DNA of 50,959 bases, filler included, from Sphacelaria rigidula (GCA_964200075.2; 2 parts of 2 records of this genome joined end to end with filler, not necessarily neighbours in it), one strand, 5' to 3'. Positions 9,932-27,685 are shown, counted from the first letter of the whole stretch. Made by a program: numbers and translations. Notes: generated from the letters alone by a model not told the origin.

Positions 9932-10130
9932 GCTGGAAATGCCGGAAGGACATGGTGGCTTGCAACCTTTTTACCTCTATACAGGAGCGATGGTGGTCGT
10001 TTCCGGCTTGACCTTCGTTGTGGAAGATAGAAATTAACAGTGTATTGTAGTCATGAAGGCAACGAAGTGACGAGGTCCACAATTGCCTCTCTCTCCCCTC
10101 CCCTTCCCCTGTGCATCTGTCATTGTTGGA

Positions 10131-10269
10131 ATGCCTTCGTTGTCGCAGATGCGGACTGTTGGTACGGCGACAGTCGTGCTGTTAGCCGGCCTCCCCGCCG
10201 TGCTGGGCACATGGGGACACCATGGTGGAGATGAAAGATATGGCAAGGACGACGACAACGACTACGTTG
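10131..10269 (+). CDS. Exon 1 of the multi-knottin gene: signal peptide plus short His/Asp-rich N-terminus
   Basis: ATG at 10131; hydrophobic stretch TATVVLLAGLPAVLG; ends GTTG|GTGAGC (phase 1), matching the phase-1 acceptor TGTAG|GA at 12050. Confidence 0.75.
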
Positions 10270-13200
10270 GTGAGCTGACAATCTGTTTCACATATTCAAA
10301 CACAAAGAGACACCACGTCATCGCCCCCCAGAAAATCAAAACCCTTTAACCGGCTAGGCCAGTCATCTGGGTCTAAATTCATTGTTTGACAAGCGAAAAG
10401 TTATTCGAATTTAATAGATTAACCACACTGGCGCTCGAAGGGTTAACGCCTGCCTGGTATAACAGCATTTTTGTATGGCTTTCGGCCTTTCAGAAATTGG
10501 CCTATCGAGTTTGTTCTAGCGAGTATTTCCCCGTTGTTCACCTTGGGTATGCCCATCTTGTACCTCCGGCTGCAATCCTCGGGAAATAGTTGATGTGCGA
10601 CAATTAATCAATCCATCCATTGTAAACAATCTGGATGCGCTAGAGGCACGATGTTTTCGTGCACTGGCACGGCACATTGTGTTGGCAGTCCATGAGACCG
10701 TTTGACCGCTCATGCATGAAAGGTGCCGATTTCACCGATAGCCCAGTCGGTGGTGGTCCAAGGGTCCTTCGATCACGTCGGTGCATCACTCACCCTTTGA
10801 ACCGGCATCTTTTTCGATTGAAAATACGTGCAAGGCCCAACTAATTGACCCTCGTGATCAAAAGTCCTGAAGCTGCAGATTATTTGTCCCATCAATGTAG
10901 GGTGTATGTAAACAGCCAGAGCGTGGCAGGATATTAGATTTGCAAATCGGAGACAGATGGTTAGAATGTTCAGTGTTCAATGATTTGTTCGCATCAGTCT
11001 TGGATTGAAGTTCGAGTATCTAGATACCGATAGCGGACGCCTTATTGGTGAGGAAAAGGGCGGTTGCTGCCGTAAGTTTGGGAGTTCAAAGTAATACTAC
11101 AGTACAGCACGGTACGGTACTGCACAGATCCGTGTTCTCAGGTGAGCGGGGTTGCGTTGGATGCCTACTCTGCCGATGTGCGAGAAATGACTTTCCAAGG
11201 GAGGTTAGGGTAGGGTACGCAGCCTGGGGTACCCTGCCTCTGTATGTTTCGGATACTTTCGACTACATATTAATAGTTCCCTATCGTAGGGTTCTGAGGG
11301 TATCGACCACCCGAAATACCTAGTATTACAAGGGTGTGTCGGGTAGGGTTGATACCCGGGTATCTAATGTCGCGCTTTTTTATTGCTATGGTCCGATCTC
11401 CAAACTCTACCCAAATGGGTGAAGTGGCGTACGATCGCAATACTCTACTCAATGTCTAGGCATTGTTGAGTACGATCTCAATACTCGTACTCTATGCGCG
11501 CTTTGTGTACTCAGTAAGATTCAAGAAAATTCCCAAATGTAAGAAATACCTCCCTTAATACTCCCTTGCAGTATGCCAGGGTCCCAGGGTATCGACATGC
11601 CGAAATACCGGACTGTAACCTACCCTACCATACCCACGTATATGTTCTGGCTGCATGAGGACCTCAGTCTTCTGTAATGTGCTTCTCGCAGTCTTTGTCT
11701 GCTGCCACTGTTTGGATTGCGCATATGTGCGCGTACTTGGATCTACAATAGGGTTTCGAGTGTTGAAGCGTGCGTGTGCCCTTTGAATAGCCATCCAAAT
11801 TTAGAATTAACCGACCTGGTCCTTCAGTATTCACCCATAACTTTGCATCCGCATTACTTCGGTCAATACCCCCCAACTTTGAAGATTCATTGTTCGTTCC
11901 ACCCACCCTGTGTACACTCCAAAAAACGATGTCACTGGATGTTTGAATTGACTGGTTCAAGCCTACCCTCGCGCAGCCCCCTGCTCCCCGTTCACTCACA
12001 TTATCCCACCCTTGGAAACGCGTCGTCCGTAACTTGTCTTGCTGTGTAGGAAGTGAGTCTACAGTCAACTCCTCATGCGGCGAAGTGGGCGAGTACTGTG
12101 GTGGTAGTCACTGGTACTCGTGGGGCAAGTCGTCCACCGAGTGCTGTAGTGGCCTTGTGTGCGAGCACAACTACTGCGCAGGTGAGGATTAAACTTTGCG
12201 AGTTTGGCACGACGCTATTTATACCAATGGCAGTATGGGCCCGTTACGGATGGGTTTAATCTTTTCATTCATTTCGATCATTAATTCATGAAATTAGTGA
12301 CAATTGATGAAAACATGAATGAAAAATGAAGCCCGTTGATGTTATTGTGACGAATCCTCGCGCCTCTGACGCAGAGGAGCAATGCCGCGGTAGGGGTGCA
12401 CACTGTTTTTTCTGGAGCTCTTTGCTGTAGGAGTGACTCTCGATCACAAATGTCAAATGTCTGTCTTGTAGTGCAGCCTCAGCGTTTCGTGATATTGAGA
12501 GTAGATGATTGATTGAGAGCGGGTTTAATCCTTGGCTTTCATGTGACCAATTTTACAGTATGTGTGTTTTTCTCGCCTGTACCACTAGCGTGTGCTTACA
12601 GCTGCACGTCCATATCCTACTCGGGGATATCAATGGCTTCAGTGGAAAGCTACTACGAGAAAGATAATATCGGGCCTCGTGGAGAGTCATTTCGGAACTG
12701 AAACGATTGGTTAATTAATTGAACGCTTTTCACTCTCGATCGTGTCCTCTATCCTCAATAGCACGAAAGCGTTGTTGGCATTACTCAGAGCTAACAGCAA
12801 CGGACCGAAAAACATCAATCAACAACAGCTGGGGTGATCAGAACACCACACTTCCTTTGTCATGGGAAGAGTTCCATTCCTTGAAGCACATATTATACGG
12901 CACTCGCAGTGACCGCCAAGCGTTCTACCTGTTCGCTGTCAGTAGAAACAGAAAGGAAAACGGAGAGAAATACATGGCAAACAGGGACTAAGCTCAAATG
13001 TAGTACTAGTCCTGAACAGAACTCAACGGGCCCCCGCCAGTGCTTTCGGTGAGAAGGCTGCAAAAAGTCATGTGGGAGTAAGATGCGACTCAGCTATGTG
13101 AGAACTGCCGTTCTCGAGCGAGAATTCTCACCCGCCAGCTCGTCTGGAGCGAGGCACGAGCATGAATGCTGTGAAGTAGTATGATCTCTCGGGAAAAAAA

Positions 13201-16200
13201 AAGTTGACGGACGTGTGCTTGCCTCACTCGATGTTTACATCTATACACCCCCCCCCTCAAGGTGTCGAAAAGCCCGTCAGCACTAGCGTCCCTCCTGTTC
13301 TTCACCTCTCCAGCTAGCTAGCTATCTGTCGGGCGCTTCCTGTATCAACGCAGTTCTACCTGTAATTCTTCTACTTGTGTTCCTTTCTTGAGTGTCGGGT
13401 ATTGATCACTACTGAGCGTATTGCAGCCACTCTCCCTTGAGTGTCCGACGTTCTCACATCGATGCGTTGCGATTCGTCTCATATGTAAACGTGCACTGAA
13501 CATTAATTACTCGGTCCTGCGACCTGACTTGCACGGAGGATTTGTTGTGTCGCTCGTCATCCACGGACCAGCCGAAACCTTGTACCACCCACCTACTCCC
13601 TTCTGTCGTTATATTTTGTTGCTGAATAACGTTACAGAGGACGCCGACAATGGTGGGTCCGGTGGAGGTAAGGACTCTAGTGACGACAGCGGGTCTGGAA
13701 AAGACGGCGACTCTAGTGACGACAGCGGGTCTGGAAAAGACGGCGACTCTAGTGACGACAGCGGGTCTGGAAAAGACGGCGACTCCAGTGACGACAGCGG
13801 GTCCGGAAAAGACAGCGACTCTAGTGACGACGGCGGGTCTGGCAAGGACAGCGACTCTAGTGACGACGGCGGGTCTGGCAAGGACAGCGACTCTAGTGAC
13901 GACAGCGGGTCTGGCAGAGACAGTGACTCCAGTGATGACCGCGGGTCTAGCGACGACAGCAATCCTCAAGATGATGCCGGTGATGATGGGTGCGTGTCCC
14001 AGATGAGCCACTGCGACTCCAACTCGGACTGCTGCTCCAACCTGTCGTGTGTATACGACGACACCCTATCCGATACCGGTAAGAGGAAGATACTCCCTAT
14101 CTCGGAAGGGATGCGTGGTCAATTGTCAAACGGCTAAGGCAACCAGCGAATAAGTACCCCTCTCCCCCCCCCCTCGCCCCCCCTGTGCGCCATGCCCCCG
14201 AAAAAGTGAAGAAATAAGATCGATTGCTAGTATACCGGAGATAACCAGGATGCACAGTATGCGGTGTATTTCTTCCAAGAACATGGATCGTCATCACTGA
14301 CCGCGAACCATTGGTCTTCACCTCACTGTGAAACTGTTCGTTACAACGTGCGGGGAAGCCCGATTCAGCATATCAACAACCTCATAGCTGATAACCACGA
14401 ATCATGCGGGGACTACGAAGGTCTTTGCGGAGGAGACCCGCCAAGACACGATCCATTTATCGTGTCCACCCGGTCGTCGGAATAGCATTTACTTCTTCCG
14501 TGTAGCACCATCGCTTTTTGTTTGTGAGATTACACACGTTTCGTGCAGGTCAAGACTTGTTTTTGCTTGACTTCCTCGCCTTCTCTCGTCCCACCTGCTC
14601 TGGAAGTTGCAACGATTTCATCCTTCCATCGCCTCGGTTGTTGGCGTAATTCTCAAGCATTCCCTTCGGCCAAGGGCAGTCAGTATGTTGATATATTCTA
14701 TGCCAATGGCAAACAGTATCTTCTTTACGGATGCACAGCACCACTTTTGGGCTGTGCGTTTTGCAGTCGCGCATTCCTTGTGCCGTCCGTTTTGGGACTG
14801 GTGACACCTGAGGGGGGTATTTGACTGACAACTGCACCGCACCGTGGTGCATTTAACTCTACCAGTGAACGCAAGACAGAACACGGGGTGCGTATTTGCT
14901 TCATCCTTGTTATTAAATTTCAAACACGAACTCACGCGTGAACGGTTCAATTTCTTGAGGTACGTTTTGTTCGGCCCCATGGTTTCTCTACGTGATCCAT
15001 GATATTCACCTTGCCGGGATCTGAGGTACAGCCTGGTACGGTTGGTGGTTCATTCACCTAAAAAGCACTCCCGAATGACGAGCTTTTCCTGCGAACATTG
15101 TGTGTCATCCCCTCTAATATGACCGCCAGTGTACCCCTTTCGGAATGTTCTTTAGACGTGTATCAGCAGGGGTCACTCGGAAGGAAGGTCAACACAGGAT
15201 TTTTCTGAAGTTCATTCCTTTTTCTTTCAGCAAATTCTTCCTTCTGCGATGTTCACCCCTACTTTTCACCGCTAAAGGGATTCAGCGGTCCCTTTTCATC
15301 GTCGATCGTAAAGACGAACTCTGTATACCCACGACGTACAGTAGGCGCTTTCCACTGTTGCGCATGATGATGAGGAAAACATTCCTATATCGTGTGACTT
15401 CACCGAGATTCGAATCCACTTCCCAACCGTCAGGAGGATTCGAGGATACAACTGAGCCACCCGGGCGACCGGACTTGTGCGGGGCCCTTAACCTGGCACA
15501 GACATCGTGCACATCTTTGGCGTGAACACCCCATTTGACCTAAGCATGTAGTTCCGGAACTTGCGTAAGATGGTGTGCGAATGTGGCACTTACGAGGACG
15601 TATTCTTGTCGAGAACCCTTGAAATGCACATTGCTTGCTTGATTGCTAACACATGCCTCGATTCAAAACTCGCTTGCGGTTGACGAACGAAACGAACGTC
15701 TGCGGTACAACTACTTTCCGCCATGTCCTCATGCCTTTGCGTCCACCTTCCATGAATCCGATAGTGTGCAAGCCCTGCGGTACTAACCATGGGTGCGCGG
15801 CGGAGAACGAAGAATGCTCGGACTCCGTCATCTGCTGTGCAGGAACCACGTGCACGGCCGTCGACGGCAAGACGGGTGAGTCGTATTTGGGAGATTCTCC
15901 GACAATACCCCCACCTACCGGCATCCCAGTGGGTCACGTTGTAATTCTGCACTCGGAAGTCTAGACGGAGTTCTGATTGCTACGGCCGTTGGAAATTGAG
16001 ACAACGCGGTCTACATCTCGTGTGCGAGAATTTCGACTCCAAAGCGAACTTGTAGTATAGCTTGTCATGGTTGAACGATATCTTGGATCTTGCTACCTTT
16101 TACTTCATATCTATGACCTTCCCTTTTGTTTCTGCTGTCATCCCAACTATCCTGAACGTCAGCTTACACATTCCCGTATATGTGGGCGCATCAACCAGGG

Positions 16201-19200
16201 TCACACAGGAGGAAGGTCAATACGGGAAGCTTTTTTTCTTATTGCCCCCCCTCTTTCTGCGGTGCTTGCCTTACTTTTGATTGTGAAAAGGGTTCAGCGG
16301 CCCCTTTCTCTCCCTCCGAGATTCGAACCCACGTCCCATATGTCCGAAGGTTTCAAGGTTACCTACCAACTGGCGCGACTGGCCTGTCATTCCGTTCTGG
16401 AAGAAAATCCGCCGACGTAGTAGATTGCAGAAGAATACTGTAGCTAAGATACTAGGGTACGTAGCTTACAGTACATCTGGTGTAGATGTTGACGCGTTGA
16501 ACGTCAGCAGCCGGTTGAATCAGATCATCCGACCTGGATTCACGTACGTTCAGTGACGCAGAATTATGTTATATATTACGGGACGTGTCAACTTAAATGT
16601 GACAATCGCCATCCCCCCCCTCGCTACTTGCTCTCAGAACTGTTCTCTTATTCCGTAATAGATGGCGTATTTAATTCTGTCTCGGCCAGAGGAGCGCCCA
16701 TAACACCATTTTTACCCCTTCCAATACACGCAAGGGAGCCTCGCATCTACCGTGCACCCTCAGCAATTCTGTGCACTGAAGTGTGAAATCTTGTTGACAT
16801 TCTAGTCCACAAAACCCGTCAATTGTTGTACTCGTGCGCTTTGGGCAGTTTGTGTGGCTCCTACGCCGTCTCCGACTCCTTGCGCCAAGGAATTTGACGT
16901 TTGTACCACGAATTCAGACTGCTGCGAGGGCTTGGAGTGCGGCAACAACGGGATGGTCGACTTGTGCTTGGCGCTGGTTGCTCCCACACCCGAACCGGTC
17001 ACCCCGACCCCCGAACCAGTCGCCCCCACCCGCGAACCGAACATGCCTTCCCCGGAGCCAGAGCCGACTTGCGCTAAGGAGTTCGACGCTTGCGCCGACA
17101 CCGCCGACTGCTGCGAGGGCTTGGAGTGCGGCAACAACGGGATGGTCGACTTGTGCTTGGCGCCGGTTCCCCCCACCCCCGAGCCGGTCACCCCTACCCC
17201 GGAACCGGAGCCTGTCTGTTCTAAGGAGTTCGACGCTTGCACCACCACAGTCGACTGCTGCGATGGCTTGGAGTGCGGCAACAACGGCGACGTGGACTTG
17301 TGCTTGGTGGCGGTTGCTCCCACACCCGAACCGGTCACCCCTACCCCCGAGCCTGCGGCGCCGACCCCCGTGGAGCCCACCTGCTCGGAACTGACCGAGA
17401 CCTGCAAGGCTGACGCCGACTGCTGTGACCCGTACGATTGCTCGACCATTGCCGGGGAGCGAGGTGGGTTGTTGGTAGCTTGGGGCATGCCCCATGAAAC
17501 TCTATTGAAAAAGAGGTTACTAGAACTTGCACGGGAGGGCGCCCGGACAAGCGGTCACATTTTATCCCTTGAGGAATGTCGTGCACGATGTAAGCGTTCA
17601 CAACAAGATGGAATCTGCTTCTGGAGGCGATGTTTCTCTATTTTCATACTATTCCGAGATCTGTGATGTTGTCCGAAATGGTGATTTTTTAGCTTGGCTT
17701 GAAGGGCATTCGAAACATTTTTTTTCATGGGAAAACATTCGTACTTGCTGACCTGCGTGATGTTTGGGTTTCCTGTGTGTCGCAGTGTGCTCTGAAAAGT
17801 GTGGCGTCGAGGCTGACGTATGCAGCGCCGATCCCGACATCACGGAGAGGGAGTGCTGTAGTGGCTTCCAGTGCGTGGACGACGGTGCGTATGCCTTCAG
17901 CCGATGGCATTCATATTGAAATGCAAAACAATGTCTTTTGTGCGGTGATGACATCTTGCGCGATCTCTCTCCATCTGCACTAGATCATGCTTTTGCGTGA
18001 TGTGGACGTGTCTCGAGACAACTGACGTTGTAGTTTGCCACTGGTGCCTTGTGCCGCTGTTCATCTCGGGCAGTGTGTGTGGCTGATGGTTCTCCCACAC
18101 CCGAACCCGTCACCCCTACCCCGGAGCCTGAGCCTACCTGCGCTAGGGAGTTCGACGCCTGCAACGATAGCGCCGACTGCTGCGAGGGCTTGGAGTGCGG
18201 CAACAACGGCGACGTGGACTTATGCGTAGCGCCGACTGCTCCTACCCCCGAGCCAGTCACGCCAACTCCGGAACCCGCGGCACCGACCCCGGTGGATCCC
18301 ACCTGCTCCGACTTGACCGAAACCTGCAAATCTGACTCCGACTGTTGTGACCCTTACGACTGCTCAACCATTGCTAGGGAGCGAGGTGGGTTCTTCCCGG
18401 TGGCTTTGCTTTTTATGATGATCCGTCGGCTAAGGGGTTACAAGTAGGTTATAGCCTCCTCCGAGAATGACAACCTGGTAGGGCGGAGTATTGGATGGTT
18501 CGAACCCTCGAACTAGCTCCTTGACACCGCTTGATGGCTGGGTGTTTCCATGTGTGTCGAAACCGCTTGGTCTACGCTTTCAATATATGATTTGAAGGTA
18601 CATCCTGTGTTTTCAGGTGCCAGTAACAGGCACTACGTTGTTCTTTTTTCGCAGCTGATCTTTCATTCTCTGCATGGTTGGACCTCGTTGTGAAGCTCCA
18701 GTTGTTTGGAATCTTTGCATGTTTTGCAGTGTGTTCTGAAAAGTGCGGCGTGGAGGCCGACGTTTGCAGCGCCGATCCCGAGATAACGGAACGGGAGTGC
18801 TGCAAGGGCTTCCAGTGCGTGGACGACGGTACGTGTTACTTCGGAAGACAGTCTTGCTTTTCGGGAACGATTGTCTACATTGCGGTAATATCTCAACCTT
18901 GCTTGCTGTTTCCTTCTTTGCGCCAGATGACCGGGCACGGAGAATGTGTGGCACATGGACATTTTGGCGGCACATTTTTAGATGAGTATGATCACGTGGG
19001 TAAGATCTTTGACCTTCACATGATCTCGCAAAATCACTGATGTAGCAGTTCGCCTCTGGGGTCTTGTGTTGCTGTTCATCTCGGGCAGTGTGTGTGGCCG
19101 ACGGTTCTCCGATACCCGAACCGATCACCCCCACCCCGGAGCCTGAGCCTACCTGCGCTAAGGAGTTCGACGCCTGCGCCGATAGCGCCGACTGCTGCGA

Positions 19201-22200
19201 GGGCTTGAAGTGCGGCAACAACGGCGAGGCAGACTTGTGCTTAGAGCCGACTTCTCCTACCCCCGAGCCCGTGTCACCCACCCCGGAACCGGAGCCTACC
19301 TGCGCTCGGGAGTTCGACGCCTGCGGCGCCACAGCCGACTGCTGCGAGGGCTTGGAGTGCGGTAACGACGGTGAGGTAGACTTGTGCGTATTGGCGGCCT
19401 CTGCGACCCCCGAACCAGTGACCCCGACTCCGCAACCTGCGGCACCGACCCCCGTGGACCCCGCTTGCTTGAACCTGACCGAGACCTGCAAATCTGATGC
19501 TGACTGTTGCGACCCGTACGACTGCTCAACAATTGCTGGGGAGCGAGGTGGGTTCCCGGTGGCTTGAGGTTTGCTTCGCAGGATGCTCTGTCAGCAGTGT
19601 CGGCAGAGGGATTGCTAGTAGGTCACGGCCTCACACGAGGCTGAGCAGTCGGTCGGGCAGTATGATGAAGATGAGCGTGGGAGGGAAATGTTCGGTCATG
19701 TGAGGACATGATGGCAGGTAGTTGCAGATGGTAATCGGCGGGCTTGATCAGAATGAAGTGGGTGCAGCGAATCTAGAGCTGGTGTCAAACCACAGCACAA
19801 CAGAAGATGAGGGGCCTGTCACCTAGAAGTTCGGTTTGTACGCTTAAACGTAGGGTTACGGTGCCGGAAAAAGGCAACAAACCCTTCTGTAGCTGATTAT
19901 ATTTCCCATGTCTGCTTGGCCGTACGATCTAGAGAACCTATAGTGTCGCATGGGAAATCATCCACCCTTGCTCATGCGGGGATCATGTTCGGAATCCCTT
20001 GGTGTCCTGTAGTGTGCTCTGAAAGGTGCGGCGTTGAGGCCGACGTTTGCAGCGCTGATCCCGAGCTCACGGAGAGGGAGTGCTGCAATGGTTTCCAGTG
20101 CGTGGAGGATGGTACGTATTCTTCTCGCTGACGCCTCTCGGTATGTTGACCCGTCACGGGGCTTCGTTCCCTTCAACAGATGATCGGGCATGGCAGTTGT
20201 GCAAATATGGGACATTTTGGCAGTATGTTCTTCAATAATACAATCACACACATGATGAAAAGCGCGTTATGACATGCGTGCGATTTTATGGGAGAACTGA
20301 TGTGGTTTGACGCTGGTGGCGTCTCGTGTCCCTGTTTTGTACCGCAGTGTGTGTAGCCGACGGTTCCCCGACCCCCGAACCCGCCACCCCTGCCCCGGAG
20401 CCTGAGCCTACCTGCGCTAAAGAATTCGACGCCTGCGCCGATAACGCCGACTGCTGCGAGGGCTTGGAGTGCGGCAACAACGGCGAGGCGGACTTATGCG
20501 TGGCGCCGACGTCTCCTACCCCCGAGCCGGTCACTCCCACCCCGGAACCCGAGCCTACCTGCGCTCGGGAGTTCGACGCCTGCGCCGATAACGCCGACTG
20601 CTGCGATGGCTTGGAGTGCGGCAACAACGGCGAGGCGGACTTGTGCATGGTCCCTGTCGCTCCCACACCCGAGCCGGTCACTCCCACCCCGGAACCCGAG
20701 CCTACCTGCGCTCGGGAGTTCGACGCTTGCGCCGATAGCGCCGACTGCTGCGATGGCTTGGAGTGCGGCAACAACGGCGAGGCGGACTTGTGCATGGTCC
20801 CTGTCGCTCCCACACCCGAGCCGGTCACTCCCACCCCGGAACCCGAGCCTACCTGCGCTCGGGAGTTCGACGCTTGCGCCGATAGCGCCGACTGCTGCGA
20901 TGGCTTGGAGTGCGGCAGCAGCGACGAGGCGGACTTGTGCGTAGCGCCGACGTCTCCGACCCCCGAACCAGCCACCCCAACTCCGCAACCTCCGGCGCCG
21001 ACCCCCGTGAACCCCACCTGCTTGGACTTGACCGAGATTTGCAAGTCTGACGCCGACTGTTGCGACTTCTACGACTGCTTAACTATCGCCGGGGAACGGG
21101 GTGCGTTCTCAATACCCCGACTTGTTGGCTAAGAAGCGTGAGATAATTATTTGTCCCATGATGGTATCGAAGGTAGTTGGCTCATGATAATCGGGGCGTT
21201 TGATCGGCAACGCCGAGGTGATGTATTTAACGGCTGTCGAATCGCAACGGAACGACAGTGGAATCGTGAGGTTGAGCAGAAGTCGCGCTCGATGTGAGCT
21301 CTCATGTTGGATTCCAACTCTTTCGTGGTGGCTCAGGTGCCGGCAACAGCAGAGGGGCTTTTAGCTGCCTGTGTGTTCCACCTGTGCGGTCATACAGCGT
21401 GATGAAGCTTGAAATCCGCTCCGGAGACATTCAAAAGAATATTTCGCGCGAAAAACAATGTTTCGACTCTGCCGTGTTGTATTTGGAATTCCTACGTTTC
21501 GCAGTGTGCTCTGATAGGTGCGGCGTTGAGGCCGACGTTTGCAGCGCCGATCCCGAGATCACGGAGAGGGAGTGCTGCAGCGGCTTCCAGTGCGTGGACG
21601 ACGGTACGTATACTTCCCGATGATAACCGTTCATGAAACTGGGAACGTGTTCTGATTTCGACGTACAACCTTTTGGTTGGAAAGCTCGCAAAAAGTGTCG
21701 CCGGTCTGGTTCGTATGAAGCTGATGCATGATGAAAGGCATCCTTGACCCGCATAGAGAGAACTGATGTGGCCGCTCGCTACTGGCGTCGTTTGTCGGCG
21801 TTTGTCTCGGGCAGAGTGTGTGGCCGACAGTTCTCCGACACCCGAACCCGTCACCCCTACCCCGGAGCCTGGGCCTACCTGCGCTAAGGAGTTCGACGCC
21901 TGCGACGATAGCGCCGACTGCTGCGAGGGCTTGGAGTGCGGCAACGACGGCAAGGTGGACCTATGCCTGATGCCGACTTCTCCTACCCCCGAGCCCGTGT
22001 CTCCCTCCCCGGAACCTGCGGCACCGACCCCTGTGGACCCAACCTGCTTGGACGTGGCCGAGACCTGTAAGTCCGATGCTGATTGCTGTGACTCGCTGGT
22101 GTGCTTCTCCATTGCTGGCGCGCAAGAATGCTCCGAAATTTGCGGCGTGGAGGTCGACGTGTGCGGCACCGATACCGACAGGGAGTGCTGCGACGGCTTC

Positions 22201-25155
22201 GAGTGCCGCGACGACGTTTGCGTGGCGGAAGGTACCTCTCCCCCACCTTCGCCCGATGGCTGTTCCAACGAGTTCGGCACATGCCACGGCAAGATCCCTT
22301 GCTGTGAAGGCCTAGAGTGCACCAACGACCTGTGCCTGTTGGTCGCCTCCTGCAAGAAGGAATTCGAAGCTTGCGCGGTGAATGCCAACTGCTGTGACGG
22401 CTTGGAATGCGGGAACAACGGCGAGGCAGACGTATGCATGAGGCCGAGTGCTCCGACCCCCGAGCCTGTCACCCCCACTCCTGAACCAGAGCCTGTCTGC
22501 AGTGACGAGTTCGAGGTGTGTACCATGGACAAGGACTGCTGCGAGGGCTTGGAGTGCGGGAACAACGGTGTGGTGGACCTGTGCTTGCTGCCGACCGCGC
22601 CCACCCCCGAGCCGGTGACGCCCACTCCGGAACCAGAGCCCATGTGCGCGAAGGGTTTGGAAGCATGCGACATTGATGCCGACTGCTGCGACGGCCTTGA
22701 GTGCCGCAACGACGGGGATAGGGACCGTGAGTAAAAATCATTTTTGCCCTTTCCCCCCTTTTGACGTAGTCGAGATCGATATAATGTGAAGTACTGCAGG
22801 CTACTCTTCACTAGACTGAGGGGGGTTTTGGGCTACGCTGTTGAAGGACAGCTGATCGATACATGTTTCGCCTGTTTGAACGTATTCTGTTGTCATGTTA
22901 TATGTGTATGAGAAACAAATCCTCACCTGGAACGCCGAAGGCCGCGAACGGTATGGTGAAATTTTGTGTTTGGGCGTACTCGTGGTGAAAATATTCAGCA
23001 CGTGAATTTCACGGCCATAGTAATTGAAGCGTTAGCAGAATGGAAAGCTCGCCGAGACACTGTTCGTGTCTGACCACAATTCTCGACTGTTGCTGCCCCC
23101 GAACGAATTCCTGTGATGCCGACTTCAACCAGTGTGTGTCTTCCCAGCGCCAAACCCGGAGTGCAAGGACGTTGCCGGGGTTTGCGCTTCCTCCGCAGAC
23201 TGCTGCGACGACCTGTTCTGCGCTCTCGGTGGTGAGTTTAGCTTTGCTCTCTGTATCGCTGGTAAAAATGTTGACAAACCTCCGCTGCTGAACCACGTAC
23301 GTCCCTGCTTGTTTTTGGTAGCCTTCATGCATGTATTATTCACATGCTATTTTGCACACGCTTTGAACGTTGTGATGAAAAAGCTTGATATTTCATCGTC
23401 TCGAGTACCGTCGACTGGTAACCCTGAAACCCGCCATTGACTTCTTGCGACATCACAGTGGTCATGTAAAACGTCACACACTTGGTCCTTCGCAGCTTGC
23501 TGTTCGAGCAGAAAGTAGAAAATTTCATTGGCGCCGTCGCTGGTAGGATTAGCCGTCCTCCATACCTCTGGTTCTTTTATCGGGCATATTATGCACTCCG
23601 TGTAAACCTAGCGTTATCGTACCTCGTGTCGTAGACAGTTTGATCCCGGCATCGCTAAAGTAGTGACCCTTTATCGCAGGCAGCATTAATGAATTGCCTG
23701 CCTTTCTAAATCATCTTTGCGCCTTCGCGTTTCGTGTTGACCGTTGCTTCTCGGCAATTGTGTTCTCAGAATGCGTGGGACACTCCGATTGCGGAAATGT
23801 GGCCGACAGCTGTGCTAACGATGAGGGCTGCTGCGGCGATCTCAAGTGCGAGATGGACGGTGCGTGAACAGGGGATAGCTCTCCCGTTGTCTGCGAATCT
23901 ATCTAGCCTGCATGCGAGGCCTTTGCTTCTCGACCCGATTGTGTCGGGCGTATATTCGAGCCGTATTTTGATGGCTGAGCCGTCCAAGACAATCTAAGTG
24001 CTTGGATGTGCTCCCGAGCATACCGAGTTGACGGCGATTAATCCAGGTGTCGAACAGAATGGGAGTATGCGTTCCGAGGGCTATTTGCAGAGTTTCTTGA
24101 TTGGCAACAAAGCTTAGCTCTGCTCTGCTCTATTGTGGCTCGTTGGTGTTGAATCGTAGATGTTGACGAGTGTCTGGTTGCTGCCGCTTCTTCATTCTGA
24201 GGTGCCTTACAGTATCCCGTCCTCTTTGCTTGCACGCCCCGTTCTCCACATATTCACGTTCCATCCTCGTACATAAATCTAAATTCTCATTTTCTCTATT
24301 GTGCCGACGCTGGAAAAAACCATGCAACATAATTACCGCGTTCAGTGTGCGTGGACAAAGAAGCGGCCACCTGCTCAGCTGAGTTCGACCGTTGCGGAGA
24401 TGACGTGAAGTGCTGCGACGGCCTGGAGTGCGACGACACAGGCGAGTACGGGGCAATATCGGGGGGAAGTGGAGATGAATTGATCCCTCGGCCGTAGACG
24501 TTGTATATCAGAGAGTTTCGGAAAACGCTTTTTTTGTCGTTTCAAAGTGCGGATATGTCGGGATCAGAGTGAAAAAATAATTTATTTCCCCCTCCGTAAA
24601 TGTGGTTTCCTCTCGATTTTTGTTTTTTTTCGATCAGGTGTTTTTTGTTTATTCTAAACTTCAGTCTTGCAATATTTGCACTCTCAGATGACGAAATAGC
24701 GTTTGCTCAAACTCTCTGTTGTTCAGACTCCTTCGTAGAGCATATTGACACAGTGGAGATCGAAAGTACTTCCTTTCTTGCTACCCTTCACTGCTTATAT
24801 ACACTCCGGAGCATTTGTTATTGGTTTTTTCGCGACCGGATCCTTGCCTCCCCTTTCATCAGCCGGTGCGTTTTCCCTCTGTTGCCTTCTTGCTTCATGT
24901 GGCATCGATCTTTGTGCTCAGTGTGTGTCGTGCCCGAGGTGCTGTGCGAATTCTTCGGCGGAGCTTGCGGATCCACAGAGGACTGCTGCAAGGGTGGTCT
25001 GGTGTGCATCGATGAACGTGAGTTGGTTGTTGACTAGCATTGACCAGAGACGACTACGTATCCCGTCGTTGTACGGGTACGCTCGTCGATTCATTTCTCA
25101 TCCAGAATGTGCAGTCGTAGTAGATTGGCTGCAATCTTTCGACCTTTTGTCTTGA
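10131..25155 (+). CDS. Secreted multi-knottin (C-C-CC-C-C) repeat protein, 18 exons, ~1566 aa, 32 cysteine modules with PTPEP linkers and an Asp/Ser/Gly repeat
   Basis: Manual splice model: join(10131-10269,12050-12181,13638-14078,15765-15875,16849-17463,17786-17884,18074-18385,18730-18828,19089-19547,20013-20111,20348-21100,21505-21603,21815-22726,23133-23231,23770-23859,24346-24441,24922-25017,25106-25155) = 4701 nt with an open frame. All introns are phase 1 with AG acceptors and GT donors (one GC donor at 24442). The N-terminus MPSLSQMRTVGTATVVLLAGLPAVLG-TWGHH is signal-peptide-like (alternative ATG at 10149). Dominant module: C-x6-C-x5-CC-x4-C-x8-C (CAKEFDACADSADCCEGLECGNNGEADLC). The terminal exon 25106-25155 is the least certain part. 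Confidence 0.88.
11203..11635. mobile_element. MITE-like element with imperfect terminal inverted repeats (intron 1 of the multi-knottin gene)
   Basis: Left end GGTTAGGGTAGGGTAC versus right end GTAACCTACCCTACCATACCC. Internal GGGTATCGAC..CCGAAATACC is repeated (~11299, ~11587). A related fragment lies at 29540-29600. Confidence 0.55.
13674..13950 (+). repeat. Coding 36-bp tandem repeat (DSSDDSGSGKDG/S) x7 plus a degenerate copy, in exon 3
   Basis: The unit gactctagtgacgacagcgggtctggaaaagacggc is repeated in frame inside exon 13638-14078. Confidence 0.92.
15123..15472 (-). mobile_element. tRNA-derived SINE-like element, family A (intron 3 of the multi-knottin gene)
   Basis: The reverse complement begins CCGGTCGCCCGGGTGGCTCAGTTG...GGATTCGAATCTCGG and shares the body of 6140-6479. 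Confidence 0.75.
16170..16384 (-). mobile_element. Internally deleted/diverged family-A SINE-like copy (intron 4)
   Basis: TATGTGGGCGCATCAACCAGGGTCACACAGGAGGAAGGTCAA matches the reverse complement of ~6405-6445; B-box GGGTTCGAATC on the minus strand near 16320. Confidence 0.7.
16849..22726 (+). repeat. Tandem segmental duplication of a long-exon + 99-nt-exon unit (4 copies of the 99-nt exon) with a nested 147-bp coding repeat
   Basis: The 99-nt exons at 17786, 18730, 20013 and 21505 all encode VCS(E/D)(K/R)CGVEADVCSADPx(I/L)TERECCxGFQCV(D/E)D. Long exons of 312, 459 and 753 nt differ by multiples of 147. Intron 3' ends (ACTGA(C/T)G...TCTCGGGCAG) are homologous between copies. Confidence 0.92.
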
Positions 25156-25370
25156 CTTACCAGACACTTGTCAACAAAATGTACGATCCTCCCGAGCTGC
25201 TCATGCAACCGTTCACTCCTGATAAAGAATTTCTTAGTAATTGAACTGCTACACATGCGGTACAAATGTCATGGTACAAATCCTGTATCGGATCACTTAT
25301 TCAACAGTACACTACAGCAGACTGCATCCGCCAACGCCTCGACCGTCAACTATAGAAGAGCAGACTGGGC

Positions 25371-25411
<41 letters not shown>

Positions 25412-25437
25412 CCCCACACCAACCACCAACGCGACAC

Positions 25438-25537
25438 NNNNNNNNNNNNNNNNNNNNNNNNNNNNNNNNNNNNNNNNNNNNTTAATTAATTAANNNNNNN
25501 NNNNNNNNNNNNNNNNNNNNNNNNNNNNNNNNNNNNN
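25438..25537. other. Artificial scaffold gap (100 nt of N with an embedded TTAATTAATTAA spacer)
   Basis: N runs flank TTAATTAATTAA at 25482-25493, a palindromic six-frame-stop linker of the kind used to join contigs. Confidence 0.9.
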
Positions 25538-26690
25538 CCTACGATACCAGGGTATTTCGAGATTCCAATACCTACCGTACCCGCCCAGTCCGGTATTTTG
25601 AAATGTCATACCTACGATACCTACGATACCAGGGTACTTCGAGATTTCAGTACCTACCGTACCCGCCCAGTCCGGTATTATCGAAACTCATACCTACGAT
25701 ACCTACGATACCAGGGTACTTCGAGATTTCAGTACCTACCGTACCCGCCCAATCCGGTATTTTCAAAACTCATACCTACGATACCTACGATACCAGGGTA
25801 TTTTGAGATTTCAATACCTACCGTACCCGCCCAGTCCGGTATTTTGGAATGTCATACCCACGATACCTACGATACCAGGGTATTTCGAGATTTCAATACC
25901 TACCGTACCGCCCCAATCTGGTATTTTGAAATGTCGTATCTACGATACCTACGCAAAGCACGGTATAGGATACCCCGGTAAATACCGGGGGACGCTCGGT
26001 ACGGTACCTCACCTACGGTGCCTGTGAAAACTTCGACTGCCCAGCTTGCACCCTGATCTGAAACGCTTCGCACTGCCAGATGACAGTTTTGAACTCGGTA
26101 TAGAAGGTAAGGCAGGTACCCGGTACCGGTATTTGGGACATCTCATATCCTACAGATACGGACCCGATCCGGTATTTTCGAAACTCATACCTACGATACC
26201 TACGATACCACGGTATTTCGAGATTTCAACACCTACCGTACTTGCCAACTCCGGTATTTTCGAAACTCATACCTACGATACCTGTGATACCAGGGTATTC
26301 CGAGATTTCAATACCTACCGTACCCGCCAAATCCGGCATTTTGAAATGTCATACACCTACGATACCTACGATACCAGGGTATTTCGAAATTTCAATACCT
26401 ACCGCACCCGCCCAATCCGGTATTTTCAAAACTCATACCTACGATACCTACGATACCTACGATACCAGGGTATTTCGAAATTTCAATACCTACCGTACCC
26501 GCCCAATCCGGTATTTTGGAATGTCATACCCACGATACCTACGATACCAGGGTATTTTGAGATTTCAATACCTACCGTACCGGCCCAATCTGGTATTTTG
26601 GAATGTCATACTCACGATACCTACGCAAAGCACGGTATGGGATACCCCGGTAAATACCGGGGGTACGCTCGGTACGGTACCTCACCTCCG
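25538..26690. repeat. Two adjacent copies of an element built from an ~82-bp tandem unit (CCTACGATACCTACGATACCAGGGTATTTCGAGATTTCAATACCTACCGTACCCGCCCAATCCGGTATTTT...)
   Basis: Unit starts at 25611, 25693 and 25775 (82-bp period). Both arrays end with the same cap (TACGCAAAGCACGGTAT..GATACCCCGGTAAATACCGGGGG..CGCTCGGTACGGTACCTCACCT) at ~25950-26015 and ~26622-26688. The second copy starts near 26106 with GGTAAGGCAGGTACC. Confidence 0.88.
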
Positions 26691-26984
26691 GTCCTGTGGA
26701 AAGTACCTAGCCAGTAAAATACGTAAAAACATGGGCACCGTACTGTGTGGTGCCAGCATTCGTTTTTTGACCAATCTGAGCGTCGAACGTGTACGCGAGG
26801 GTCAAGGAACCCTGGTGACAAGTATTGTAGTTTCGACTCGCGGCTGCCTACAGACAGTAGCTCGACCACCACAACAAGGAGCGAGGAGGCTTTCGAAATG
26901 AGATTAGCTTGTCCGCGTGTGCACTTCTTCTTCCCAACACTCTGTACTACGATCAACCACAAACAGATAACACTTTTATCGTAC

Positions 26985-27128
26985 CTTCGCTGGAAACCAA
27001 ACACCATCGATGTCCCTCTCCACCACATCGTCCACCCGCAGTCTTCTCTGTGGAGAACAACCGTCATCCCCCCCGAAATCCTGGCGGCTCTGCGTATGGC
27101 CCCGCTGGCCAGTCTTATCACCAAGCAT
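26985..27128 (-). CDS. Probable first coding exon of a minus-strand gene beginning a Tudor/Agenet-like strand motif
   Basis: ATG at 27128 gives MLGDKTGQRGHTQSRQDFGGDDGCSPQRRLRVDDVVERDIDGVWFPAK, then donor AAG|GTACGA. 'VDDVVERDIDGVWFPAK' resembles the Tudor/Agenet VGxxVE...DGxWxxAxV pattern. Downstream exons were not identified (a scaffold gap lies downstream). Confidence 0.45.
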
Positions 27129-27685
27129 TTCATCCGGATCGCTGCTGCGACAGTTTGCACGCCACCGTCTTGTCGTTATTGAACTGTACAAACCCAAGAA
27201 CAGCGCCCGGAATATATTGTTGCAATAGGCTGGTGAGGACACACAAGCACTGTTCTACTTTCTCCATGGCACGCTGACCTCGCAACGATGCTCTGTACTT
27301 TCCTACACGAGATCTAACGTCGCGAACGCCAGATGACCTTGCATCCGCCTAGAAAAACATGCCTGCCCAACGGCACACAAAGCCACACGAAATCCACGTA
27401 TATTTCACCTCCGTAGTTGATGGATGACTGATTATGGAGCAAGGGGGGGGCAGGATACAACCTCCCGGTCGTCCAACCCAGGTTCAAAACACCTGTGCCT
27501 TCCACGCTGGACGCGCAAAAGTCCTGTTTGGATATTCGAAAAAAACAATAGCAGCTCAGTTCACTAATGGAAAATGACTCACCTTCCGAAGCGTGTCCGG
27601 GTAGCGTCTGGAGTGTCGTTTGTGCTGTACTTTGCGGGTGCAGAAGAGCTTTACACCCGAGAGTCGCTTAGCAGTACAGTACAAC

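What the first reader, a model, noticed from the sequence alone, without database searches (positions are those of the whole stretch)
13638..25155. All-phase-1 cassette exons that split each knot before its last cysteine, allowing combinatorial splicing or exon shuffling
Seen: all 17 introns are phase 1 and all internal exons are multiples of 3 (132, 441, 111, 615, 99, 312, 99, 459, 99, 753, 99, 912, 99, 90, 96, 96 nt). From exon 3 onward, every exon ends after the 5th Cys of a module and the next begins NN-TGY (V/E/L/Q-Cys), supplying the 6th Cys. Any exon from 4 to 17 can therefore be skipped, duplicated or reordered and still give an in-frame protein with complete six-Cys modules. Established: one-repeat-per-exon shuffling has been described for Ectocarpus LRR-ROCO and NB-ARC-TPR genes. 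Inference: this may be an extracellular, knottin-based counterpart generating isoform or allelic diversity.
Basis: partly seen in the sequence, partly recalled or inferred. Interest (0 to 1): 0.85.

Follow-up and report, generated by a model that had tools for sequence, protein, structure and literature searches.

The report
Secreted 32-knot protein gene, phase-1 exons
This is a real, transcribed gene for a very long secreted protein made of about 32 small disulfide knots, and its uniform intron pattern looks like the footprint of repeated exon duplication, not a system for mixing exons.

Summary
The anatomy is largely real. Exons 2-17 have exactly the listed lengths. All 16 introns between exons 1 and 17 are phase 1. 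Exons 4-17 all begin NN-TGY. Three RNA contig sets print 9 of the 16 junctions, and contig lengths imply 2 more.

Corrections:
- Only 15 of 32 knots are split; 17 lie whole inside exons.
- The proposed exon 18 is not supported by the RNA contigs.
- One module has seven Cys, and one intron is GC-AG.

The modules are knottin-like (Pfam Toxin_12, PDB profile hits, a confident model).

Best reading: the gene grew by tandem duplication of a founder exon carrying the previous knot's sixth Cys, a linker and Cys 1-5. Later came duplication of a two-exon block, 147-nt repeat expansion inside exons, and probably intron loss.

Skipping any exon would stay in frame (210 of 210 pairings). No printed junction skips an exon, and paralogous knots show dN/dS of about 0.05-0.2. 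Combinatorial splicing is therefore possible but unsupported.

The parts
10131..10269 (+). Exon 1. It has an ATG at 10131 (a second ATG at 10149), a hydrophobic signal-peptide-like N-terminus (MPSLSQMRTVGTATVVLLAGLPAVLG...), and ends in phase 1 with donor GTGAGC.
   Evidence: One search gives the translation and donor. One search shows an RNA contig from 10147 and a joint from 10268/9 to 12049/50 in X1, X2 and X3. The signal peptide is read from the sequence; no predictor was run.
12050..12181 (+). Exon 2, 132 nt, phase 1-1. It holds one complete six-Cys knot with a long second loop.
13638..14078 (+). Exon 3, 441 nt. It holds an acidic 36-nt repeat (7.7 copies, 93% matches, encoding DSSDDSGSGKDG), then Cys 1-5 of a knot.
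   Evidence: The RNA joint 12181 to 13638 is.
15765..15875 (+). Exon 4, 111 nt. It starts TG-TGC and holds 7 Cys: the previous knot's sixth Cys plus six more.
   Evidence: Its inclusion is implied by a 111-nt gap inside the RNA contigs that join exons 3 and 5 (records 2 and 9).
16849..17463 (+). Exon 5, 615 nt. It holds the sixth Cys of the previous knot, three A-type knots with Pro/Thr linkers, and Cys 1-5 of a B-type knot.
   Evidence: The 147-nt repeat has 2.2 copies. Pfam Toxin_12 scores 48 bits.
17786..17884 (+). Exon 6, 99 nt, C-type knot exon of block 1.
18074..18385 (+). Exon 7, 312 nt. It holds one A knot and Cys 1-5 of a B knot (block 1).
   Evidence: The RNA joint 18385 to 18730 is.
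18730..18828 (+). Exon 8, 99 nt, C-type knot exon of block 2.
19089..19547 (+). Exon 9, 459 nt (312+147). It holds two A knots and Cys 1-5 of a B knot (block 2).
20013..20111 (+). Exon 10, 99 nt, C-type knot exon of block 3.
20348..21100 (+). Exon 11, 753 nt (312+3x147). It holds four A knots and Cys 1-5 of a B knot. Units 11b and 11c are 98% identical.
   Evidence: The 147-nt repeat has 4.1 copies at 92%. The RNA joint 21100 to 21505 is.
21505..21603 (+). Exon 12, 99 nt, C-type knot exon of block 4.
21815..22726 (+). Exon 13, 912 nt. It holds six whole knots plus Cys 1-5 of a seventh.
   Evidence: RNA contigs of 1123-2640 nt start at 21916.
22045..22233 (+). Intronless copy of the B | C | next-exon arrangement inside exon 13. 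The junction residues are ..AGAQ-E-C.. and ..RDD-V-C.., with the same spacing as the spliced copies.
   Evidence: That this reflects intron loss is an inference.
23133..23231 (+). Exon 14, 99 nt. It holds the previous knot's sixth Cys plus Cys 1-5 of the next knot.
23770..23859 (+). Exon 15, 90 nt, same layout as exon 14.
24346..24441 (+). Exon 16, 96 nt, followed by a GC-AG intron.
   Evidence: One search shows the donor gcgagt. The RNA joint is printed as 24438 to 24919 with 3 ambiguous letters, which equals 24441 to 24922.
24922..25017 (+). Exon 17, 96 nt. This is the last exon seen in the RNA contigs within the stretch laid.
25106..25155 (+). It has the best polypyrimidine tract of the 16 AG|NN-TGY candidates scanned, but the RNA contigs do not support it.
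   Evidence: One search lists the candidates. Against it: bin-depth arithmetic and the absence of a printed joint from 25017 to 25106, although that contig's other joints are printed.

Best explanation
**What it is.** The locus is one transcribed gene of at least 17 exons on the + strand (10131-25017, 3' end unresolved). It encodes a secreted, very acidic protein of more than 1550 residues. The protein has a signal-peptide-like N-terminus, an acidic Ser/Asp/Gly repeat, and then 32 knottin-like modules (C-C-CC-C-C) joined by Pro/Thr-rich linkers.

**How the intron pattern arose.** The uniform phase-1 pattern with the intron before the last Cys is inherited, not assembled piece by piece.
- A founder exon carried the previous knot's sixth Cys, a linker, and Cys 1-5 of the next knot. 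It was bounded by phase-1 introns and was duplicated in tandem. Exons 14-17 still have this form.
- A two-exon block was later duplicated to four copies. The block is a 99-nt C-knot exon, an intron, an exon holding A knots and a B knot, and an intron.
- Inside the large exons a 147-nt unit (one A knot plus linker) expanded as an ordinary tandem repeat. This explains the lengths 312, 459 and 753.
- Some introns were probably lost, as in the intronless B-C copy in exon 13.

Symmetry of phase is the condition under which such duplicates survive, so it is a footprint of growth.

**Splicing and function.** In the RNA sets at hand the exons are spliced in genomic order. I infer that the protein is a multivalent, probably O-glycosylated, extracellular matrix or surface glycoprotein whose knots serve as stable binding or cross-linking beads. 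That function is not shown.
For: **Shown**
- Exon coordinates, phases and Cys layout.
- RNA joints between neighbouring exons in three RNA contig sets. Intron bins have zero RNA depth where the DNA run has ~70-80.
- Paralogous introns share their 5' and 3' ends. For example, the last ~65 nt of introns 6, 8, 10 and 12 align, and introns 5, 7, 9 and 11 align at both ends. BLAST finds only 2 intron-intron pairs.
- The first A knots of blocks 1-4 are 88-91% identical to each other. Units 11b and 11c inside one exon are 98% identical.
- 147-nt tandem repeats lie in exons 5, 9, 11 and 13.
- Purifying selection on the paralogous knots: C exons have dN 0.04-0.07 against dS 0.26-0.80, and B knots have dN 0.06-0.13 against dS 0.56-0.88 (codon positions).
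- Knottin assignment:
  - Pfam Toxin_12 scores 48-55 bits (cut-off 21) on the three large exons and 21.4 bits on exon 3.
  - A profile of 16 modules hits solved ICK peptides, best E = 1.4e-7.
  - The model of one A knot has pLDDT 87.8 and a beta-hairpin. Its top fold matches are ICK peptides with TM about 0.7.
- Protein composition: D+E 21.8%, K+R 4.1%, P+T 18.5%, and only 1 dibasic site in 1550 residues.

**Inferred**
- The order of events, the intron loss, the signal peptide and the function.
- Two unnamed relatives' ORFs (P0001, P0003) leave the A-knot consensus right after ..VD with C-E. That is the translation of T|GTGAG, so an intron probably sits at the same place in one-knot exons there.
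Against: - 5 of the 16 junctions (introns 5, 6, 8, 9, 10) were not among the printed joints, and 12 joints were not shown. Constitutive splicing of the central blocks therefore rests on contig lengths only.
- Contigs drop rare variants, so minor exon-skipped isoforms cannot be excluded.
- A-type knots show higher dN/dS, with summed pairwise counts of 297 nonsynonymous against 174 synonymous differences. Some relaxation or diversification of A-knot loops is therefore possible.
- Intron loss against intron gain in exon 13 is argued by parsimony, not shown.
- The relatives' DNA could not be fetched, so the intron there is inferred from peptide read-through only.
- The C-terminus is unknown, so an anchor or a further domain could change the functional reading.
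- No genome was available to count paralogues.
- The organism was not identified.
Confidence: 0.72

Rival explanations
1. The symmetric phase-1 exons are used as cassettes. Regulated exon skipping, or frequent unequal exchange between exons, produces many isoforms or alleles of an extracellular knottin array. It would be an extracellular counterpart of the exon-shuffled LRR and TPR receptors of brown algae.
For: - All 210 of 210 donor-acceptor pairings stay in frame and complete a knot, because the whole fifth-to-sixth-Cys loop lies in the upstream exon and only the Cys comes from the next exon.
- Exon-level duplication did occur.
- Brown-alga ROCO genes with one LRR per 72-bp phase-2 exon are reported to be alternatively spliced (PMC11378527, passages).
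- A-knot loops are less constrained than B and C knots.
Against: - Among the 15 joints printed, every RNA joint links neighbouring exons, each as one contig in each of three RNA sets.
- B and C knots are under purifying selection, with dN/dS about 0.05-0.2.
- dS of 0.26-0.88 between blocks, and introns diverged beyond BLAST detection for all but 2 pairs, show that the exon array is old and stable, not highly dynamic.
- The newest expansion is intra-exonic.
- The protein shows no receptor or signalling domain through exon 17.
Confidence: 0.12
2. The gene encodes a polyprotein precursor. The protein would be cut in the linkers to release many free knottin peptides, antimicrobial or inhibitory, as in multi-copy defence-peptide precursors.
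For: - There are many near-identical copies of a small, stable, disulfide-rich unit.
- The fold resembles bioactive ICK peptides.
- The protein has a signal-peptide-like N-terminus.
Against: - There is only 1 dibasic site in 1550 residues, and none in the Pro/Thr linkers.
- The linkers look like O-glycosylated spacers, not propeptides. This is an inference from composition.
- B and C knots are separated by only 3 residues.
- The modules are acidic, unlike most cationic antimicrobial peptides.
Confidence: 0.08
3. The knot is a true mobile class 1-1 module. It would have been shuffled between different genes of this lineage's secretome, which is exon shuffling in the strict sense, outside Metazoa. 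This gene would be only the largest array.
For: - Phase 1-1 exons follow a signal-peptide exon that also ends in phase 1. This is the configuration Patthy links to the origin of class 1-1 modules (PMC8001218, passages).
- A metagenome contig (L001) carries one such knot at the C-terminus of an unrelated Cys-containing protein.
- Unnamed relatives seem to have one-knot exons.
Against: - The intron lies inside the fold, before the sixth Cys, so an exon is not a self-sufficient domain. A single transplanted exon would bring one stray Cys and an incomplete knot.
- No other knot-bearing gene lies in the 51-kb window.
- No genome was available.
- Only 16 relatives at E <= 0.001 were found among 1.84 billion representative proteins.
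- The organism of L001 is unknown, and its contig shows no intron.
Confidence: 0.15

Closest known systems
Class 1-1 (phase 1 - phase 1) symmetric module exons of metazoan extracellular proteins, such as EGF-like arrays (Patthy; PMC8001218, passages read)
   Same: - The protein is secreted.
- The modules are small, disulfide-rich and mainly beta.
- Every exon is flanked by phase-1 introns.
- The signal-peptide exon ends in phase 1.
- The array grew by tandem exon duplication.
   Different: - The intron sits one Cys inside the fold and not in the linker, so exon and domain are out of register.
- The module is a knottin, not one of the metazoan module types.
- Only intragenic duplication is shown here; movement between genes is not.
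- The organism is not an animal.
Exon-shuffled LRR-ROCO and NB-ARC-TPR genes of Ectocarpus and other brown algae (PMC3341825, section 17 and passages; PMC11378527, passages)
   Same: - They have tandem symmetric exons that each carry a repeat.
- Skipping or duplication of an exon is frame-neutral.
   Different: - Those exons are 72 bp, of identical length and phase 2. They encode intracellular repeat domains fused to signalling domains.
- They are reported to show diversifying selection and several splice variants.
- Here the exons are phase 1 and of unequal length (90-912 nt), and the protein is extracellular.
- B and C knots are under purifying selection, and no variant joint was printed.
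- The 2012 genome screen concluded that shuffling was overwhelmingly restricted to TPR and LRR loci. Its supplementary table could not be read.
Secreted cysteine-rich repeat proteins, SCREPs (PMC6262176, passages; ScrepYard, search listing only), and bivalent spider ICK toxins (PMC13172734, passages)
   Same: - They have a signal peptide followed by tandem copies of a disulfide-rich domain.
- ICK domains occur in tandem.
- Intra-exon duplication is the mechanism of domain gain, as with the 147-nt units here.
   Different: - The spider ICK mature peptides, bivalent ones included, lie wholly in one exon with no intron between or within domains.
- Here there are 32 knots, 15 of them split by an intron.
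- The SCREP paper has no occurrence of 'alga', 'stramenopil', 'intron' or 'exon'.
Pfam Toxin_12 (PF07740), the ICK / knottin fold
   Same: - The Cys framework is C-C-CC-C-C.
- HMM scores are above the curated cut-off.
- The predicted hairpin fold matches psalmotoxin, conotoxin GXIA and asteropsin G.
   Different: - This is a giant acidic multi-domain protein, not a short basic venom peptide.
- Nothing suggests ion-channel activity.
- The disulfide connectivity was not tested.

Membership tests
Knottin / inhibitor cystine knot (Pfam Toxin_12, PF07740) | Six Cys in the framework C-C-CC-C-C within about 30 residues | tested here: met
   31 matches to the five-Cys core pattern lie on the + strand inside the gene, plus the exon 2 knot, giving 32 in all. 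The scan also gave one hit in intron 13 and one on the - strand, both taken as chance. 16 whole modules align with 6 invariant Cys columns. Exon 4's module has one extra Cys.
Knottin / inhibitor cystine knot (Pfam Toxin_12, PF07740) | Profile HMM score above the curated gathering cut-off | tested here: met
   Scores are 55.0, 52.1, 48.0 and 21.4 bits against a cut-off of 21 for 4 of the 5 pieces scanned. The 32-residue C-type exon on its own gave no hit. A PDB profile search returned 60 sequences at E <= 1, nearly all ICK peptides, with a best E of 1.4e-7.
Knottin / inhibitor cystine knot (Pfam Toxin_12, PF07740) | Compact fold with a C-terminal beta-hairpin, superposable on solved ICK peptides | tested here: met
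   The AlphaFold2 model of one A knot has pLDDT 87.8 and strands at 23-26 and 31-34. The Foldseek top hits are psalmotoxin-1 (TM 0.71, rmsd 1.9-2.0) and conotoxin GXIA (rmsd 0.8). 0 of 64 matches reach E <= 0.001, because the domain is so small. This is a prediction, not a solved structure.
Knottin / inhibitor cystine knot (Pfam Toxin_12, PF07740) | Disulfides I-IV, II-V and III-VI, with the third threading the ring | not testable with these tools
   Model coordinates are not returned. This needs NMR or mass-spectrometric disulfide mapping.
Class 1-1 mobile modules (exon shuffling in Patthy's sense) | Both flanking introns in phase 1 | tested here: met
   16 of 16 introns between exons 1 and 17 are phase 1.
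Class 1-1 mobile modules (exon shuffling in Patthy's sense) | The exon corresponds to one autonomous folding domain, with introns at the domain boundaries | tested here: not met
   The intron lies between the fifth-to-sixth-Cys loop and the sixth Cys. Each exon therefore holds the previous knot's last Cys and an incomplete knot. Large exons hold 2-7 knots.
Class 1-1 mobile modules (exon shuffling in Patthy's sense) | The same module occurs in different genes, next to unrelated domains | tested here: inconclusive
   One metagenome contig (L001) has a single knot on an unrelated protein of unknown organism. No genome is held for the window.
Brown-alga exon-shuffled repeat receptors (LRR-ROCO, NB-ARC-TPR) | One repeat per exon, with successive exons of identical length | tested here: not met
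   Only exons 16 and 17 (96 and 96 nt) are adjacent and equal in length. The 99-nt exons alternate with exons of 312-912 nt.
Brown-alga exon-shuffled repeat receptors (LRR-ROCO, NB-ARC-TPR) | Diversifying selection on the repeat exons | tested here: not met
   dN/dS is about 0.05-0.2 for C-type exons and about 0.07-0.17 for B knots. A knots are higher but below 1 overall. The sample is small: 32-40 codons per comparison.
Brown-alga exon-shuffled repeat receptors (LRR-ROCO, NB-ARC-TPR) | Several splice variants with different repeat-exon content | tested here: inconclusive
   Only neighbour-to-neighbour RNA joints appear among the 15 printed, and 12 were not printed. Assembled contigs drop rare variants.
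Secreted cysteine-rich repeat proteins (SCREPs) | A signal peptide followed by two or more tandem disulfide-rich domains | tested here: met
   A hydrophobic N-terminus is read from the sequence (no predictor was run). There are 32 modules.

The most novel reading that the evidence does not exclude
The register shift puts the sixth Cys at the start of the next exon and makes every exon from 4 to 17 interchangeable without breaking a knot. The organism may exploit this. Stage- or challenge-specific exon skipping, or frequent unequal exchange between the paralogous exons, would produce a repertoire of extracellular poly-knottin isoforms or alleles. This would be an extracellular, class 1-1 counterpart of the exon-shuffled LRR and TPR receptors. 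It would also be a case of class 1-1 modular evolution outside animals.
Probability: 0.1. Interest if true: 0.8.

Novelty: new member of a known kind. Interest (0 to 1): 0.4.

Why it matters
- Symmetric phase-1 exons that encode small disulfide-rich extracellular modules are the hallmark of how animals built their matrix and receptor proteins. One review I read in passages asks why such exon shuffling is restricted to Metazoa (PMC8001218).
- A transcribed 32-knot array with the same intron logic in a non-animal eukaryote shows that the first step can arise independently. That step is tandem growth of a class 1-1 exon behind a phase-1 signal-peptide exon.
- The locus also records four modes of repeat growth side by side: exon duplication, block duplication, intra-exon repeat expansion and probable intron loss.
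- The library searches found no description of cystine-knot proteins in brown algae. 'phaeophyceae' plus 'cystine knot' returned 0 papers. 'brown alga' plus 'knottin' returned 17 papers; none of the 15 titles listed concerns an algal knottin.
- The protein itself may therefore be an undescribed matrix or surface component.
- As a diversity generator, however, it remains only a possibility.

Tried and rejected
- **Whole genome.** None is held for this window. Paralogue counts and a genome-wide scan for phase-1 knot exons could not be done.
- **Fetching relatives' DNA.** The DNA of the relatives' contigs (P0001, P0003, P0012 and others) could not be read.
- **The search for homologous proteins.** All 3 of 3 searches with the exon 13 translation gave no hit at E <= 0.001: 'longer', 'near', and region 74-212 'near' (only 18 candidates). 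The first two were swamped by Pro/Thr words. This is no evidence that the protein stands alone.
- **The search of protein representatives.** It gave only 16 hits at E <= 0.001. All 10 looked up are unnamed.
- **ESM Atlas.** The best score was 0.76, to a bacterial cluster, which is below the usable level.
- **RNA runs.** No listed holder is on record as RNA. X1-X3 were taken as RNA because they carry GT..AG joints absent from the DNA run and leave introns uncovered.
- **The 3' end.**
  - The 30-letter loose end at 25080 (X2) occurs nowhere in the window.
  - A scan for AG|NN-TGY acceptors from 25018 to 34000 gave 16 candidates, none decisive.
  - No further knot pattern lies downstream of 25017 on the + strand.
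- **Double-knot model.** The exon 13 B-C pair folded from a single sequence gave pLDDT 70.4 with two hairpins and a low-confidence junction. This is too weak to say whether the two knots pack together.
- **tRNA scan** of 9000-27000 found none.
- **Pfam on neighbouring ORFs.** 9 long ORFs elsewhere in the window gave 0 families. The organism was not identified.
- **Supplementary table 2 of PMC3341825** lists non-LRR, non-TPR candidates and may bear on whether a locus like this was seen before. It could not be read.
- **Assembly artefact, rejected.** DNA contigs of run X6 agree with the window across 21916-25361, and RNA joints match the predicted splice sites.
Full report
**1. The observation**

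I rebuilt the gene model from the sequence.
- Searching for open, phase-1 exons of the listed lengths, bounded by AG and GT/GC, recovers one consistent chain. The chain is exon 3 (13638-14078), exon 4 (15765-15875), exon 5 (16849-17463), exon 6 (17786-17884), exon 7 (18074-18385), exon 8 (18730-18828), exon 9 (19089-19547), exon 10 (20013-20111), exon 11 (20348-21100), exon 12 (21505-21603), exon 13 (21815-22726), exon 14 (23133-23231), exon 15 (23770-23859), exon 16 (24346-24441) and exon 17 (24922-25017).
- Exon 2 is 12050-12181. Exon 1 ends at 10269.
- All 14 exons from 4 to 17 start NN-TGY.
- 15 of 15 acceptors of exons 3-17 are AG. Donors are 14 GT and one GC.
- Every one of the 210 possible pairings of a donor exon (3-17) with an acceptor exon (4-17) gives V, E, L or Q and never a stop.

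The formal claim therefore holds: any of exons 4-17 can be removed, repeated or moved while keeping the frame and the Cys count.

**2. RNA evidence**

One call of read laying put contigs of four coded runs on 9000-25400.
- Runs X1-X3 behave as RNA. They carry GT..AG joints that the DNA run X6 lacks. They have zero depth in the intron bins 12829-13375 and 14470-15016, and in the non-exonic bins 9000-10093 and 10641-11187, where X6 has ~70-80.
- The printed joints confirm introns 1, 2, 7, 11, 12, 13, 14 and 15. They also confirm intron 16 once its 3 ambiguous letters are allowed for, which makes it a GC-AG intron.
- Contig arithmetic implies that exon 4 lies between exons 3 and 5: 205+111+135 = 451 nt in X1 and 204+111+252 = 567 nt in X2.
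- Joints for introns 5, 6, 8, 9 and 10 were not among the 15 printed. Twelve joints were not shown.
- No printed RNA joint skips an exon.

**3. Corrections to the observation**

(a) *The last exon is not supported.* The contig that carries exons 13-17 in X1 has depth 59.7. Bin depths reproduce exon lengths exactly: 9.82 = 59.7 x 90/547 for exon 15. The bin 24863-25400 has depth 11.0 = 59.7 x 99/538, which is exon 17 only. Yet this contig (2552 nt) and its X3 counterpart (2640 nt) have about 1360-1448 nt beyond exon 17. The DNA contig of X6 agrees with the window through 25361. The transcript therefore splices from 25017 to somewhere outside the stretch laid. That place could lie beyond the poly-C run, the two N gaps and the 82-nt satellite at 25372-26659, or off the window.

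(b) *Not every knot is split.* The gene holds 32 knots. 17 are whole within one exon and 15 are split before the sixth Cys. What holds is that every intron from intron 3 onward splits a knot; it is not true that every knot is split.

(c) *Exon 4 holds seven Cys*.

**4. What the modules are**

- Pfam Toxin_12 (ICK) scores 48-55 bits on the three large exons tested and 21.4 bits on exon 3, against a cut-off of 21. The 32-residue C-type exon alone gives nothing.
- Sixteen whole modules align with six invariant Cys plus a near-invariant G-L.
- A profile of that alignment hits 60 PDB sequences at E <= 1. Almost all are ICK peptides, such as Xt3a (1.4e-7), SGTx1, DkTx, asteropsin G and gurmarin.
- An AlphaFold2 model of one A knot has pLDDT 87.8 and a beta-hairpin. 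Its best fold matches are psalmotoxin-1, conotoxin GXIA and asteropsin G at TM about 0.7. No match reaches E <= 0.001, as expected for 37 residues.
- The knotted disulfide connectivity could not be tested.
- The protein through exon 17 has 1550 residues and 192 Cys. D+E is 21.8%, K+R is 4.1% and P+T is 18.5%. There is one dibasic site. It has a hydrophobic signal-peptide-like start and an acidic 12-residue repeat in exon 3.

**5. How the architecture arose**

The modules fall into four groups:
- 14 A-type knots (C[AS][KR]EFDAC..ADCC[ED]GLECGNNG..DLC followed by a PTPEP linker);
- 5 B-type knots (C..L.E.CK.D.DCCD.YDC.TIAGER);
- 5 C-type knots (CGVEADVCSADPEITERECC.GFQCVDD);
- 8 others.

Exons 6-13 form four blocks. 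Each block is a 99-nt C exon, an intron, an exon with A knots and a B knot, and an intron.
- The first A knots of the four blocks are 88-91% identical to each other, more than to their neighbours in the same exon. This points to block duplication.
- The matching introns align at their 5' and 3' ends but are otherwise diverged. BLAST recovers only 2 intron pairs.
- Inside the exons a 147-nt unit is tandemly repeated: 2.2, 2.0, 4.1 and 2.3 copies in exons 5, 9, 11 and 13. This explains 312, 459 = 312+147 and 753 = 312+3x147.
- Two units in exon 11 are 98% identical. The newest growth is therefore intra-exonic and needs no introns.
- Exon 13 contains a B knot, a C knot and the start of the next unit in the usual order and spacing but without the two introns. 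The same intron position occurs in A, B, C and the terminal knots. Loss of two adjacent introns is therefore the simpler reading than parallel gain. This is an inference.
- Two unnamed relatives' ORFs (P0001, P0003) depart from the A-knot consensus after ..VD with C-E, the translation of T|GTGAG. P0001 and P0012 begin with ..V-C followed by a Pro-rich linker. This fits one-knot exons with the same register in a relative. It is inferred from peptides only, because the contigs could not be fetched.
- In this window 10 of 13 unsplit A knots use TTR for the Leu before the sixth Cys, which is compatible with that history.

**6. Selection**

- Between paralogous C exons, first and second codon positions are 94-100% identical and third positions 69-81%.
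- Nei-Gojobori estimates give dN 0.04-0.07 against dS 0.26-0.80 for C exons, and dN 0.06-0.13 against dS 0.56-0.88 for B knots.
- A knots are less constrained, but summed differences still give a ratio below one.
- The units are short, so these are rough figures. They still point to old duplicates kept alike by purifying selection, not to a fast-diversifying repertoire.

**7. Comparison with what is known**

Zambounis et al. describe exon shuffling in Ectocarpus LRR-ROCO and NB-ARC-TPR genes. Their genome screen concluded that it is overwhelmingly restricted to those loci (PMC3341825, section 17 and passages; the supplement could not be read).
- Teng et al. report 72-bp phase-2 LRR exons with diversifying selection and several splice variants (PMC11378527, passages).
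- The present gene differs in phase, exon length, cellular location and selection.
- The closer analogue is the class 1-1 module of animal extracellular proteins (PMC8001218, passages). That includes a signal-peptide exon ending in phase 1. Here, though, the exon boundaries are shifted one Cys into the fold.
- Spider ICK genes keep the whole mature peptide in one exon and gain domains by intra-exon duplication (PMC13172734, passages). Only the 147-nt units here share that mechanism.
- Tandem disulfide-rich secreted proteins are known as SCREPs (PMC6262176, passages).
- The library holds 0 papers with 'phaeophyceae' plus 'cystine knot'. None of the 15 titles listed, out of 17 papers with 'brown alga' plus 'knottin', concerns an algal knottin. 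'PF07740' occurs in 3 papers, all on animals.

**8. Verdict**

- The sequence observation is accurate in its core and is backed by RNA.
- The mechanism proposed for it, combinatorial use of cassette exons, is permitted by the architecture. It has no positive support in the data I could reach, and some evidence stands against it.
- The most likely account is ordinary tandem exon and block duplication, plus intra-exon repeat expansion, in a gene for a secreted poly-knottin glycoprotein.
- The organism was not identified here, no genome was available, and the 3' end is open.
- I rate it a new member of a known kind, of moderate interest.

Noticed in passing
window 25372-26659: A 44-nt poly-C run (25372-25415) is followed by two 44-nt N gaps (25438-25481, 25494-25537). 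An 82-nt satellite of about 13 copies (25538-26625) follows directly downstream of the gene. This messy stretch may hide the true last exon or an assembly join.
   Followed up: partly
window 12282-12828, 13923-14469, 15017-15563, 16111-16657, 24316-24862: These intron bins have DNA-run depth of about 1,000-26,000 against a baseline of about 70-80, and they have RNA cover too. They are high-copy repeats, probably transposable elements, sitting in introns 2, 3, 4 and 16. A 47-nt element at 15403-15449 recurs at 16316-16362 (79%). ARAGORN finds no tRNA there.
   Followed up: partly
window 13673-13948 (exon 3): A 36-nt coding repeat (7.7 copies, 93% matches) encodes an extremely acidic Ser/Asp/Gly stretch (DSSDDSGSGKDG). 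It lies ahead of the knot array and could bind cations or be phosphorylated. This was not studied.
   Followed up: no
window 16945, 16952, 16953 (exon 5): Three clustered base differences from the window appear in RNA runs X1 and X2 and in DNA run X6. They could be an allele, a conversion between repeat units, or a small assembly error in the repeat.
   Followed up: no
window 24515-24948 and 25080-25400: An X2 RNA contig runs from inside intron 16 into exon 17, so it is unspliced or repeat-initiated RNA. Another X2 contig starts to match at 25080 after 228 letters that occur nowhere in the window.
   Followed up: partly
window 16802-17554, 18613-19590, 20286-21068, 21492-22832 (- strand): Long stop-free frames of 250-446 aa lie antisense to the large exons. 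They look like a by-product of the repetitive GC-rich coding sequence and not like genes.
   Followed up: no
L001:61-900: A 1006-nt metagenome contig encodes a 279-aa open frame. It has a hydrophobic start, an unrelated Cys-containing region and a single C-terminal knot (C..HVCNDNRDCCDGLEC...C). The knot therefore occurs singly on another kind of protein in some unidentified organism.
   Followed up: partly
P0002, P0005, P0007, P0008, P0009, P0011, P0015: Unnamed full-length proteins from other sources carry 3-9 similar knots, some with Pro/Thr linkers and one with a lipoprotein-like start. The knot-plus-linker design seems widespread and largely unannotated.
   Followed up: no
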